The position numbers and the translations under genes are program-made. Shown here piece after piece: positions 11,666-13,939 of a stretch of DNA of 44,726 nt (the stretch's first letter is position 1; every line of letters begins with the position of its first letter). Origin of the DNA: a virus (Duplodnaviria > Heunggongvirae > Uroviricota > Caudoviricetes); IMG/VR virus record IMGVR_UViG_2802429225_000004. The stretch is one strand, 5' to 3'. Below the pieces are notes generated by a model that made no database searches, was not told the origin of the DNA, and saw only the letters and a program-made list of their open reading frames with translations.

Positions 11666-11949
11666 GATGGCTTTTGTGGACAAAGACGGCATCGAAGTAG
11701 AGAGCTCAACTCACTGGATGCCGCTACCGGAACCACCGCAGGAGGTGAATCAATGACCTGGCCTGAGGCATTCACCACGGTAGGAATTGCACTGGCGGTG
11801 GCGCTGGTGGTGTATTCGATTTGCCGCTGGGGATAAAAACGATTTGCGGGAAAAGGATAGTTAAGTAGAATGGCTGCGGGTGCTTGAGGCTATCTGTCTC
11901 AGGCATGAACACCAACGGCAGATAGAGAAAAGCCCCAGTTAACATTACG

Positions 11950-12020
11950 CGTCCTGCAAGACGCTTAACATTAATCTGAGGCCATATCTATGACTTGCAC
12001 ACGTAGGTTAGCCTCTTACG
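11950..12020 (-). ncRNA. Putative Sok-type antisense RNA region of the hok locus
   Basis: Inferred from the canonical hok/mok/sok organisation only; boundaries not resolvable from sequence. Confidence 0.25.
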
Positions 12021-12046
12021 TGCCGAAAGGCAAGGAGAAGCAGGCT

Positions 12047-12202
12047 ATGAAGCAGCAAAAGGCGATGTTAATCGCCCTGATCGTCATCTGTTTAACCGTC
12101 ATAGTGACGGCACTGGTAACGAGGAAAGACCTCTGCGAGGTACGAATCCGAACCGGCCAGACGGAGGTCGCTGTCTTCACAGCTTACGAACCTGAGGAGT
12201 AA
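12047..12202 (+). CDS. hok: Hok-family type I toxin (HokD/RelF-like); overlapping mok frame begins at 11990
   Basis: 51-aa product MKQQKAMLIALIVICLTVIVTALVTRKDLCEVRIRTGQTEVAVFTAYEPEE is a hallmark Hok sequence; upstream overlapping reading frame as in mok. Confidence 0.85.
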   Translation: MKQQKAMLIALIVICLTVIVTALVTRKDLCEVRIRTGQTEVAVFTAYEPEE

Positions 12203-12430
12203 GAGACCCGGCGGGGGAGAAATCCCTCGCCACCCCTGATGTGTCAGGCATCCTCAACGCACCCACACTTAACCTTACTAGCAAGTGGCTTTAATATTAT
12301 TGTAACATTTTCATGCTCGCATGTGTTTTCTGTTGTTATGAATTAGGTACAGGGTTCTTATGCTTCTTTATTGCGATGAGCTTGCAACTGATTGTTAGTT
12401 GCTATTGGTGGGGGAAGGGATATACTTTAA

Positions 12431-12679
12431 ATGAGCAAAAAAGAGAAGTTGAGGTGGCGTCTGAATCAGCTTCCAAAGGATTTTACATGGGATGAACTCG
12501 TGACGTTGCTTGGGCATTATGGTTTCGAAATGCTTACCGGTTCAGGCTCAAGAAGGAAGTTTACCAATGCTAATGGAAGGCTTGTGGCTTTTCATTGCCC
12601 ACATCCTGGCAATATTGTTAAAGGATATGTGCTTAAAGAAGTGAAAAATCTTTTGGATGAGATTGATAGTTATGAGTAA
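12431..12679 (+). CDS. hicA: HicA-family toxin (YcfA-like mRNA interferase)
   Basis: Pattern GSGSRRKF...GRLVAFHCPHPGNIVKGYVLKEVKNLL matches HicA/YcfA family. Confidence 0.7.
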   Translation: MSKKEKLRWRLNQLPKDFTWDELVTLLGHYGFEMLTGSGSRRKFTNANGRLVAFHCPHPGNIVKGYVLKEVKNLLDEIDSYE

Positions 12680-13148
12680 TGTGCTGAGTTATAAAGGTTA
12701 TTTTGGCAGCATTGAGGTTTCACTTGAAGATAACATACTTCATGGGAAAATTCAGTGCGTAAACGATGTTGTAACCTACGAAGCGGAAACACTGGATGGG
12801 TTAAGGGCGGCTTTTGAAGAAGCTGTTACAGATTATCTCGACACATGCAAGCAGTTAGGGAAATCTCCTGATAAACCAATGAGTGGTACTTTTAACATCA
12901 GAATTGGTCGCGATCTTCATAAGAAAGCGTTTTTGGCTGCAATGGCGGATAAGACGACGCTTAATGATTATGTGCGTAAAGCTATCGAAGAAAAGATTGC
13001 TGACAAAAAAGAAGTTCATTCTCATTCGGAAAGCGAAGAAACGACAGATACATTCGTTTGGGAAAAAGCATTCTCTTTTGGTTATGTCATTTCCCCTTCA
13101 GCAAGAACAAAAAAGAAAGAGGCTGGTGAGCGATGGATGCGTCACTGA
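12672..13148 (+). CDS. hicB: HicB-family antitoxin with about 50-aa C-terminal extension
   Basis: N-terminal HicB-like fold segment plus ribbon-helix-helix-like GTFNIRIGRDLHKKAFLAAMADKTTLNDYVRKAIEEKI; start overlaps hicA stop (ATGAGTAA). Confidence 0.65.
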   Translation: MSNVLSYKGYFGSIEVSLEDNILHGKIQCVNDVVTYEAETLDGLRAAFEEAVTDYLDTCKQLGKSPDKPMSGTFNIRIGRDLHKKAFLAAMADKTTLNDYVRKAIEEKIADKKEVHSHSESEETTDTFVWEKAFSFGYVISPSARTKKKEAGERWMRH

Positions 13149-13561
13149 TGTTACAAAATATTAAGTATGCTGGTTTCGATATTGTTTCCAGTAGTTTCAA
13201 GGATAACACTAGTGATGATGGAGGGTTTTTTAAGGTCTCGATCGAGGAAGTTAAATTTTCTTCGGGGCGCGATGATGATGGTACTTGTTGGTTCCGGATT
13301 GGATTTTCGCCATCGATAAAAGGGTATCCCGATAGAGATGGTGCCGGGGATGAAGAACCCTCTTTTGAGCTAAAGATGGAGCTGATTACGGACTTTGATA
13401 TCATGAATGGAGAGTTGATCGATGAAAAATTCTTTGTGAAAAATTCATGGTATTTTGAGAATTTCATGTCGTTGACGTTAAAATTGGCGGTGGACTCTGT
13501 TCTTAAGCACACGTCGTTAAGCGATATTTATTTCCCCTGGTATTCGCCGGACTCAGCTTAA
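13148..13561 (+). CDS. Hypothetical acidic protein translationally coupled to hicB
   Basis: ATG overlaps hicB TGA by 1 nt (TGATG); 137 aa, D/E-rich, no recognisable domain. Confidence 0.45.
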   Translation: MLQNIKYAGFDIVSSSFKDNTSDDGGFFKVSIEEVKFSSGRDDDGTCWFRIGFSPSIKGYPDRDGAGDEEPSFELKMELITDFDIMNGELIDEKFFVKNSWYFENFMSLTLKLAVDSVLKHTSLSDIYFPWYSPDSA

Positions 13562-13666
13562 TAATCAAGCCCGCCGATGTGGGCTTTGTGTTATTCCTGT
13601 GTTCTGGTTTACAATTCACATGCCAGCCTGAACAACTGGCACCTGCTGCGCCAGCAGAGAAAACAG

Positions 13667-13939
13667 ATGGCGCACAAGACCAAATTACACAATTCTGATA
13701 CCGATCGTGCCAGCAGGCACGATCGGCGTTCTCATGCATTCAAATATGACTGGTACCAGCATGACCCATGCACTGCAGAACAGGCCGAATGGCTGATTCA
13801 TAACTACCGCAGACGTGGATACGAGATTAAGAAAGCCCTCAGCCTCGATTATCGTCACTGGATAATCTACGTCAGGCTGCCGTACTCCGAGCGCCCACCG
13901 CGTCCGTCCCGCACATTCCAGCAACGCATCTGGAGGTAA
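13667..13939 (+). CDS. Hypothetical protein
   Basis: Internal ATG of 120-aa track ORF; about 90 aa. Confidence 0.35.
   Translation: MAHKTKLHNSDTDRASRHDRRSHAFKYDWYQHDPCTAEQAEWLIHNYRRRGYEIKKALSLDYRHWIIYVRLPYSERPPRPSRTFQQRIWR

What the first reader, a model, noticed from the sequence alone, without database searches (positions are those of the whole stretch)
12431..13561. hicA-hicB cassette with a translationally coupled third gene of unknown function
An AT-rich moron in the nin-type region encodes a HicA-family toxin, a HicB antitoxin carrying an unusual ~50-aa C-terminal extension, and a third ORF (13148-13561, 137 aa, strongly acidic) whose ATG overlaps the hicB stop by 1 nt (TGATG). Canonical hicAB loci have two genes; a coupled third component suggests a tripartite module, for example a TA-associated effector or sensor, or an anti-defence DNA mimic, given the acidity.
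Basis: partly seen in the sequence, partly recalled or inferred. Interest (0 to 1): 0.6.

Follow-up and report, generated by a model that had tools for sequence, protein, structure and literature searches.

The report
Prophage HicAB toxin-antitoxin-chaperone (TAC) module
The third gene fused onto this prophage hicA-hicB pair encodes a SecB-like chaperone, so the cassette is a three-part toxin-antitoxin-chaperone (TAC) system, a known kind of module recently linked to phage defence, whose chaperone is so divergent that databases list it only as a hypothetical protein.

Summary
hicA (12431-12679), hicB (12672-13148) and a 137-aa acidic ORF (13148-13561) are translationally coupled in an AT-rich 1.3-kb moron. 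It lies between hok/sok and the DUF968/RusA/Q genes of a lambdoid prophage.

HicB carries a ~43-aa aromatic-rich tail after its ribbon-helix-helix domain. Among 45 distinct phage HicB relatives, 40 of 41 with room downstream and a tail have a coupled third gene. The 2 without a tail have none. Every ORF3 homologue with readable context follows hicAB, except one weak relative behind an HTH antitoxin-like gene.

This is therefore a HicAB-type TAC module, a class validated in 2016. ORF3 is the chaperone and the HicB tail is the chaperone-addiction element. The DNA-mimic idea is not supported, because acidity is a SecB trait. It is a new, unannotated member of a known kind, and a defence role is inferred, not shown.

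The parts
12275..13580 (+). Whole inserted cassette (moron), about 1.3 kb and AT-rich
   Evidence: blastn against the empty site in phage vB_EcoS-813R8 shows the flanks ending at 12274 and resuming at 13581. GC is 0.38-0.42 inside and 0.49-0.57 in the flanks. Window 12353-13568 recurs at 89% identity directly downstream of cI in E. coli NZ_CP148427.
12383..12403 (+). Conserved inverted repeat TGCAACT-N7-AGTTGC(T). It is a candidate HicB (RHH) operator overlapping a weak promoter, 28 nt upstream of the hicA ATG.
   Evidence: These are the only invariant blocks (apart from the RBS/start) in an alignment of five otherwise diverged upstream regions with 52% mean identity. The function is inferred.
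12431..12679 (+). hicA, the toxin (82 aa, pI 9.2)
   Evidence: Pfam HicA_toxin 5.4e-10, above the gathering score. phrog_8887 'toxin' 4.6e-26. This clade has GSR where canonical HicA has the catalytic GSH.
12672..13148 (+). hicB, the antitoxin (158 aa). It consists of an N-terminal HicB domain, a ribbon-helix-helix domain (about residues 66-113) and a C-terminal tail.
   Evidence: Pfam HicB 1.3e-17. phrog_9151 matches residues 1-118 of a 119-position profile. Weak RHH matches cover residues 66-113.
13017..13145 (+). HicB C-terminal tail (residues 116-158, 43 aa, 6 aromatic residues). It is the candidate chaperone-addiction (ChAD) element.
   Evidence: The tail is absent from the short two-gene relatives L073 and L076. 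It is present whenever a third gene is present. Conserved features are an aromatic-His-aromatic-His strand motif, a Trp in 37 of 39 tails and a C-terminal His in 33 of 39.
13148..13561 (+). ORF3, a SecB-like (SecB-TA type) chaperone (137 aa, pI 4.31)
13567..13596 (+). Terminator-like hairpin plus T-rich tail, 6 nt after the ORF3 stop
   Evidence: Consensus scan finds an 8-bp stem with 5 GC pairs. No such site lies between the three genes. This is a consensus match only.

Best explanation
The cassette is a HicAB-type toxin-antitoxin-chaperone (TAC) operon carried as a moron by a lambdoid prophage. The proposed mechanism follows; none of it has been tested for this locus.

- HicA is the toxin. 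By family it is presumably an RNase that arrests translation.
- HicB neutralises HicA with its N-terminal domain. It probably represses the operon through its ribbon-helix-helix domain at the conserved TGCAACT-N7-AGTTGC palindrome.
- The ~43-aa aromatic-rich C-terminal tail of HicB acts as a chaperone-addiction (ChAD) element. It makes HicB unstable or aggregation-prone unless the SecB-like product of ORF3 holds it.
- The three genes are translationally coupled, so the inert complex assembles as it is made.
- When the chaperone is titrated away, for example by a protein of an infecting phage, or when synthesis stops, HicB fails and HicA is released.
- The result would be abortive infection or exclusion of competing phages in the lysogen, possibly together with prophage addiction.
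For: Shown by tool results:

1. HicA and HicB pass the Pfam thresholds.
3. Linkage is strict. Ten ORF3 relatives were checked: 9 of the 46 family representatives (8 by look-up; P0009 matches the first 135 aa of the ORF3 homologue in L038) and a genome-scan relative (L004). Nine sit 0-5 nt after or overlapping a hicB with hicA upstream where readable. The tenth, the weakest (P0049), follows an HTH_3 antitoxin-like gene with a long tail. This mirrors the known promiscuity of SecB-TA chaperones.
4. An independent search starting from HicB found 45 distinct phage HicB relatives. Forty of the 41 with a tail of at least 25 aa and room downstream have a coupled third gene of 126-151 aa. Both tail-less HicBs (112-113 aa) have none. 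The single exception is interrupted by an IS element.
5. Tail features match published ChAD properties. The sequence is variable, there is a median of 6 aromatic residues in 38 aa, and a Trp is conserved in 37 of 39 tails. The papers describe the C-terminal extension as highly variable in length and composition (PMC5105189) and as recognised through aromatic residues (10.1101/2024.02.24.581848).
6. A validated HicAB TAC exists in Methylomonas methanica. Its HicB is 159 aa with the ChAD at residues 119-159, almost the same layout as here (PMC5105189).
7. The three genes move as a unit. In E. coli NZ_CP148427, Klebsiella (L009-L011) and a metagenome phage (L006) they sit directly after the cI-type repressor, the slot of lysogen-expressed exclusion genes.
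8. ORF3's acidity equals that of E. coli SecB.
Against: - ORF3 has no detectable sequence similarity to SecB. Pfam, NCBIfam, PADLOC and PDB profile searches are all empty. hhalign against E. coli plus H. influenzae SecB is not significant (E 0.085). Homology therefore rests on a predicted fold, with only 7-12% identity to the structural matches.
- No complex model could be made, so tail-chaperone binding is inferred from co-occurrence alone.
- The tail-less control class has only 2 distinct sequences.
- This HicA clade has Arg, Lys or Gly where the catalytic His of characterised HicA toxins lies (PMC11594946). RNase activity and toxicity are therefore not assured.
- The defence role is by analogy with HigBAC, CmdTAC and MqsRAC. 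No HicAB TAC has been shown to defend against phage in the papers searched.
- The promoter call is weak.
Confidence: 0.8

Rival explanations
1. ORF3 is an acidic anti-defence protein (a DNA mimic) or another independent phage accessory gene that merely sits next to a two-gene hicAB.
For: It is acidic (pI 4.31), small, lacks any family annotation and lies in a phage accessory region.
Against: - The fold is SecB, with a four-stranded sheet plus a long helix.
- Acidity is shared with SecB itself.
- The gene is never found apart from an antitoxin gene and is start/stop-coupled to it across 25-90% sequence divergence.
- Its presence tracks the HicB tail.
Confidence: 0.03
2. It is a TAC by architecture, but its main role is prophage or host-genome stabilisation, or stress-responsive growth control (the classical TA roles), not phage defence. 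The chaperone would link toxin release to proteostasis stress or loss of the element.
For: The original TAC literature frames these as stress-responsive modules (PMC3581621, PMC5105189). A hok/sok addiction module lies immediately upstream, so this region collects maintenance genes. No defence data exist for HicAB TACs.
Against: - Prophage-borne E. coli TACs tested so far (HigBAC, CmdTAC; also MqsRAC, whose location is not stated in the text read) protect against phages (10.1101/2024.02.24.581848).
- The recurrent placement right after cI matches lysogen-expressed exclusion genes.
- The two roles are not mutually exclusive.
Confidence: 0.15
3. ORF3 is a SecB-fold protein that acts on something other than HicB. 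It might be a second antitoxin acting directly on HicA, or a modulator of host SecB/SecA export. The HicB tail would then serve another purpose, for example as a degron or a metal-binding His motif.
For: The tail has conserved His features that are not described for ChADs: an aromatic-H-aromatic-H motif and a C-terminal His in 33 of 39 tails. Binding was not modelled.
Against: The strict tail-to-third-gene correlation holds across several sequence-unrelated third-gene families. The best structural match is specifically the ChAD-bound TAC chaperone. The layout is the same as in the validated Mmet-HicAB TAC.
Confidence: 0.05

Closest known systems
Mmet-TAC, the HicAB-SecB(TA) system of Methylomonas methanica MC09 (Bordes et al. 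2016, PMC5105189)
   Same: The gene order is the same: hicA, hicB, then the chaperone. HicB has the same layout, with an N-terminal domain, an RHH domain and a ~40-aa C-terminal extension. It is 159 aa with the ChAD at 119-159, against 158 aa with the tail at about 116-158 here. The chaperone is of similar size.
   Different: The HicB sequences belong to a different subfamily (compare). [quoted passage not shown] ORF3 matches no SecB profile. Here the module is on a lambdoid prophage. Function is untested here.
M. tuberculosis HigBA1-SecB(TA) TAC, Rv1955-Rv1957 (PDB 5mtw; PMC6377645)
   Different: The toxin-antitoxin pair is HigBA, not HicAB. Sequence identity is 7%. It is chromosomal and described as stress-responsive. 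Its ChAD ends in a Val-Ala ClpXP degron, whereas these tails end in His.
E. coli prophage TAC defence systems HigBAC and CmdTAC, and E. coli MqsRAC (Mets et al. bioRxiv 10.1101/2024.02.24.581848; Vassallo et al. 2022, PMC9519451)
   Same: HigBAC and CmdTAC are prophage-encoded E. coli TACs, and all three have SecB-like chaperones. The model in which the chaperone binds aromatic patterns of the ChAD and is titrated by a phage structural protein is the mechanism proposed here.
   Different: The toxin families differ (HigB, MqsR, the CmdT ADP-ribosyltransferase). No phage challenge data exist for this HicAB version. PADLOC v2 models do not detect it.
Canonical two-gene HicAB (E. coli, Y. pestis, B. 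pseudomallei, S. pneumoniae; review PMC11594946)
   Same: The HicA and HicB Pfam domains are present, the genes overlap, and HicB has an RHH DNA-binding domain as in the Y. pestis, B. pseudomallei and S. pneumoniae HicBs.
   Different: There is a third coupled gene and a 43-aa HicB tail. HicA has GSR in place of the catalytic GSH His. The 2024 review does not mention chaperones at all.

Membership tests
Toxin-antitoxin-chaperone (TAC) system | Tricistronic operon in the order toxin, antitoxin, chaperone | tested here: met
   hicA and hicB overlap by 8 nt, and hicB and ORF3 overlap by 1 nt. A single terminator-like hairpin follows ORF3. The same order and coupling occur in all related loci.
Toxin-antitoxin-chaperone (TAC) system | The TA pair belongs to a type II family (HigBA, MqsRA or HicAB) | tested here: met
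   Pfam HicA_toxin scores 39.7 bits (cutoff 27) and HicB scores 63.9 bits (cutoff 21).
Toxin-antitoxin-chaperone (TAC) system | The third gene encodes a SecB homologue | tested here: inconclusive
   [not shown]
Toxin-antitoxin-chaperone (TAC) system | The antitoxin carries a C-terminal extension (ChAD) that two-gene homologues lack | tested here: met
   The 43-aa tail lies beyond the RHH domain. Of the tailed relatives with room downstream, 40 of 41 have a third gene. The 2 tail-less relatives have none.
Toxin-antitoxin-chaperone (TAC) system | The ChAD is variable, disordered or aggregation-prone, and is recognised through aromatic residues | tested here: inconclusive
   The tails vary in sequence, have a median of 6 aromatic residues, and have a conserved Trp in 37 of 39.
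Toxin-antitoxin-chaperone (TAC) system | The antitoxin needs the chaperone to neutralise the toxin, and removing the ChAD abolishes that dependence | not testable with these tools
   This requires toxicity and rescue assays.
SecB chaperone family | Homotetramer (dimer of dimers) with a peptide-binding groove | not tested
   Only a monomer was modelled.
HicA toxin (RNase) | A conserved catalytic His in the G-x-H (GSH) motif | tested here: not met
   In alignments to B. pseudomallei HicA (6g26, 4c26) and 1whz, the His position is Arg41 here. Across the clade it is R, K, G or S. An invariant H-x-P-H-P (His55, His58) is present instead. The role of the His comes from PMC11594946. The protein still passes the Pfam family threshold.
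Anti-phage defence system (PADLOC catalogue) | A match to a catalogued defence-system model | tested here: not met
   There is no significant PADLOC v2 hit for any of the three proteins.

The most novel reading that the evidence does not exclude
ORF3 founds a sequence-orphan branch of SecB-like chaperones, listed as 'hypothetical protein' in every named record looked up. This branch, with a distinct His/aromatic ChAD type (an aromatic-H-aromatic-H strand, a conserved Trp and a C-terminal His), defines a temperate-phage-borne HicAB TAC clade in Gammaproteobacteria. The clade often occupies the cI-proximal exclusion slot. It would act as a superinfection-exclusion sensor in which the chaperone reads a structural protein of incoming phages and releases a non-canonical, His-less HicA toxin.
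Probability: 0.3. Interest if true: 0.6.

Novelty: new member of a known kind. Interest (0 to 1): 0.4.

Why it matters
TAC systems have recently been shown to defend against phages, with the chaperone acting as the sensor.

- **Annotation:** This locus shows that a whole clade of phage-borne HicAB TACs is invisible to current annotation, because its chaperone cannot be recognised by sequence. Forty-six 50%-identity clusters were found, in Escherichia, Klebsiella, Enterobacter, Yersinia, Cronobacter, Pectobacterium, Vibrio and Oceanospirillum. Profiles built from this family would let annotation and defence-finder pipelines label these genes.
- **Experiments:** The locus offers a compact, testable E. 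coli prophage system for asking what a HicAB TAC senses.
- **HicA chemistry:** It also allows a test of whether a HicA lacking the canonical catalytic His is still an RNase.
- **Limit:** It does not change the concept of TACs.

Tried and rejected
- Sequence searches with ORF3 and with its 43-member family found nothing. They covered Pfam, NCBIfam, PADLOC and PDB chains. The only hit was phrog_19522, of unknown function.
- The search for homologous proteins gave only 3 close relatives. The exhaustive HMMER search was needed to reach 46.
- The search for related loci with the broad ORF3 alignments failed for lack of conserved stretches.
- hhalign of the family against a two-sequence SecB alignment was not significant (E 0.085). 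The in-register match covered only strand 4.
- The third genes of more distant tailed HicBs (L069-L088) also have no Pfam SecB match.
- The afdb50 fold library was unavailable.
- The repeat finder missed the 6-7-bp operator arms. The multi-locus alignment found them.
- The promoter scan's hit at 12399-12426 would start transcription at about the ATG. Its second hexamer lies in a block conserved next to the start that is more likely the ribosome-binding site, so I do not rely on it.
- The DNA-mimic reading was rejected on fold and linkage.
- The 141-aa minus-strand ORF at 13087-13512 was disregarded. It is antisense to the conserved, confidently folding ORF3 frame.
- Rfam found no RNA family inside the cassette.

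Full report
**1. What is in the sequence**

The three ORFs exist exactly as described.
- hicA is 12431-12679 (82 aa).
- hicB is 12672-13148 (158 aa). Its ATG overlaps the hicA stop by 8 nt.
- ORF3 is 13148-13561 (137 aa). Its ATG shares one base with the hicB TGA (CAC-TGATG).

HicA and HicB pass the Pfam gathering thresholds and match the phage families phrog_8887 'toxin' and phrog_9151 'HicB-like antitoxin'. The phrog_9151 profile has 119 positions and ends at HicB residue 118. Weak matches to ribbon-helix-helix repressors cover residues 66-113. The extra C-terminal tail is therefore about 43 aa (116-158), a little less than the ~50 aa stated.

The region is AT-rich: GC is 0.38-0.42 against 0.49-0.57 in the flanks. 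ORF3 is acidic, with pI 4.31.

The surrounding genes are a lambdoid prophage accessory and nin-type region:
- hok/sok upstream (Pfam Hok/Gef; Rfam sok at 109.5 bits);
- a DUF968/HNH gene, RusA and antiterminator Q downstream.

**2. The cassette is a discrete, mobile three-gene unit**

Against phage vB_EcoS-813R8 the flanks are contiguous, and window 12275-13580 is an insertion. Only 13 of 5426 complete E. coli genomes carry the cassette. About 4000 carry the flanks.

A terminator-like hairpin follows ORF3 at 13567-13586, and none lies between the genes. Upstream regions from five diverged loci share almost nothing except an invariant inverted repeat, TGCAACT-N7-AGTTGC (window 12383-12402), and the ribosome-binding/start block. 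I read the repeat as a likely operator for the HicB RHH domain. This is an inference.

**3. What ORF3 is**

No sequence method names it. Pfam, NCBIfam, PADLOC and PDB chain searches are empty, both for the single sequence and for a 43-member profile. The word-indexed search found 3 near-identical relatives. The exhaustive HMMER search of 1.84 billion representatives found 46. All begin at the position of the 13148 ATG, which supports that start.

Named members come from Cronobacter, Yersinia, Enterobacter, Pectobacterium, Klebsiella and Vibrio. Every one is labelled 'hypothetical protein'. One relative lies in an Oceanospirillum MAG.

An AlphaFold model from the 4-sequence alignment was mediocre (pLDDT 75). 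Even so, all of its top 23 Foldseek PDB hits were SecB chains or the 2hng/2o2a proteins of unknown function.

In the viral structure library the top hits are phage proteins named 'Preprotein translocase subunit SecB' (E 2e-5, TM 0.62).

Profile-profile comparison with SecB is not significant. However, E. coli SecB does not detect Rv1957 by sequence either, so lack of sequence signal is normal for this fold family. ORF3's acidity matches E. coli SecB (pI 4.26), which removes the basis for the DNA-mimic idea.

**4. Linkage and the HicB tail**

Starting from ORF3 relatives, every context with readable upstream DNA shows hicA, a long hicB and the ORF3 homologue, with the last two genes overlapping or 1-5 nt apart. 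The hicA genes are 82-103 aa and the hicB genes 138-162 aa as called. The one exception is the weakest family member, P0049 (E 8.7e-4). It follows, with overlap, an HTH_3/HTH_26 antitoxin-like gene that has its own ~57-aa tail. Pairing of one chaperone type with different antitoxin families is what is described for TAC chaperones (PMC5105189).

Starting independently from HicB, a scan of IMG/VR gave 80 loci holding 45 distinct HicB sequences.
- 40 have a tail of at least 25 aa and a coupled third gene. Of these, 31 third genes belong to the ORF3 family and 9 to other sequence families of 126-151 aa.
- 1 has a tail but no third gene. An IS transposase follows it (L068).
- 2 lack room downstream.
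- The 2 tail-less HicBs (112-113 aa) have no third gene.

Within the ORF3-linked clade, the 39 distinct tails vary in sequence but share several features:
- an aromatic-His-aromatic-His-aromatic-acidic strand motif right after the RHH domain, VHSHSE in this window;
- a median of 6 aromatic residues in 38 aa;
- a Trp about 10 residues from the end in 37 of 39;
- a C-terminal His in 33 of 39.

**5. Comparison with what is known**

Tripartite TAC systems are an established class. They combine a type II TA pair (HigBA, MqsRA or HicAB) with a SecB-like chaperone, and the antitoxin carries a variable C-terminal ChAD extension that makes it chaperone-dependent (PMC5105189, PMC3581621, PMC6377645).

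A HicAB TAC from Methylomonas methanica was validated in E. coli. Its HicB is 159 aa with the ChAD at 119-159, nearly the same layout as here, although the HicB sequence belongs to a different subfamily.

E. coli TACs (the prophage-borne HigBAC and CmdTAC, and MqsRAC) defend against phages. In HigBAC the chaperone recognises aromatic patterns in the ChAD and is diverted by the lambda major tail protein gpV, which releases the toxin (10.1101/2024.02.24.581848).

I found no paper describing a phage-borne HicAB TAC or this chaperone family. The 2024 HicAB review does not mention chaperones.

**6. Mechanism**

Shown by the analyses:
- the identity of the HicA and HicB domains;
- the SecB fold of the ORF3 model;
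- the operon structure;
- the strict co-occurrence of the tail with a third gene;
- the mobility of the unit.

Inferred:
- HicB represses the operon at the palindrome.
- The tail makes HicB dependent on the ORF3 chaperone.
- Diversion of the chaperone, or a halt in synthesis, frees HicA.
- In the lysogen this excludes other phages.

One caveat concerns HicA. This clade has Arg (or K, G or S) at the position of the catalytic His of characterised HicA toxins, together with an invariant H-x-P-H-P (PMC11594946). The same feature occurs in the tail-less two-gene relatives, so it is a clade trait and not specific to TACs. The toxin's chemistry is assumed from the family, not verified.

**7. Verdict**

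The 'tripartite module' interpretation is right, but the module belongs to a known class. ORF3 is the SecB-like chaperone, and the 'unusual' HicB extension is the ChAD-type element.

It is a new, currently unannotated member of a known kind. Interest is moderate. The module is useful for annotation and as a compact experimental system, but it is not conceptually new.

Noticed in passing
window 12431-12679 (HicA residues 39-44 and 55-59): This HicA clade has G-S-R-R-K-F where characterised HicA toxins have the catalytic G-S-H. Across relatives the position is R, K, G or S. His55 and His58 (H-x-P-H-P) are invariant. The two-gene relatives L073 and L076 share this, so it is a clade trait. The active site may be rearranged.
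   Followed up: partly
window 12383-12403: An inverted repeat TGCAACT-N7-AGTTGC is invariant in five otherwise diverged hicA upstream regions (window, L003, L005, L006, L009). It is a likely HicB operator.
   Followed up: partly
window 13017-13145 (HicB tail), and tails in L001-L067: The tails share an aromatic-His-aromatic-His strand motif right after the RHH domain and a C-terminal His in 33 of 39 distinct tails (the others end HDA or VVN). These features are not described for published ChADs, which end in a Val-Ala degron in M. tuberculosis HigA1. They may be a degron or a metal- or pH-sensitive element.
   Followed up: partly
L069, L070, L071, L074, L075, L077, L078, L088 (IMG/VR loci): More distant tailed HicB relatives each have a start/stop-coupled third gene of 126-151 aa. 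These come from at least four sequence families that match neither the ORF3 profile nor Pfam SecB. The L070 group has a SecB-like 'FPY(V/L)R' motif and a weak hhalign match to SecB (E 8e-4). Their folds were not predicted.
   Followed up: partly
L020 2-761: The weakest ORF3-family member (P0049) overlaps the end of an HTH_3/HTH_26 (HigA- or MqsA-like) gene with a long tail, not a HicB. This hints that the chaperone family also serves other antitoxin families. The upstream toxin is off the contig.
   Followed up: partly
window 11878-12202: A complete hok/sok type I toxin-antitoxin lies immediately upstream of the cassette: Rfam sok at 109.5 bits, and a Hok/Gef ORF with its mok-like leader at 11990-12202. 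Two addiction or defence modules therefore sit side by side.
   Followed up: partly
[not shown]
   Followed up: no
L068 2501-3820: A HicB relative of 189 aa has an aberrant long tail and is followed by an IS transposase instead of a third gene. This is probably a TAC disrupted by IS insertion, and no hicA was detected upstream.
   Followed up: no
window 13577-13939: A small ORF matches phrog_1212 (unknown function) over its last 66 residues. Its counterpart in phage vB_EcoS-813R8 is annotated 'toxin to Rem' and RefSeq calls it hypothetical. The likely real start is internal, near 13739.
   Followed up: no
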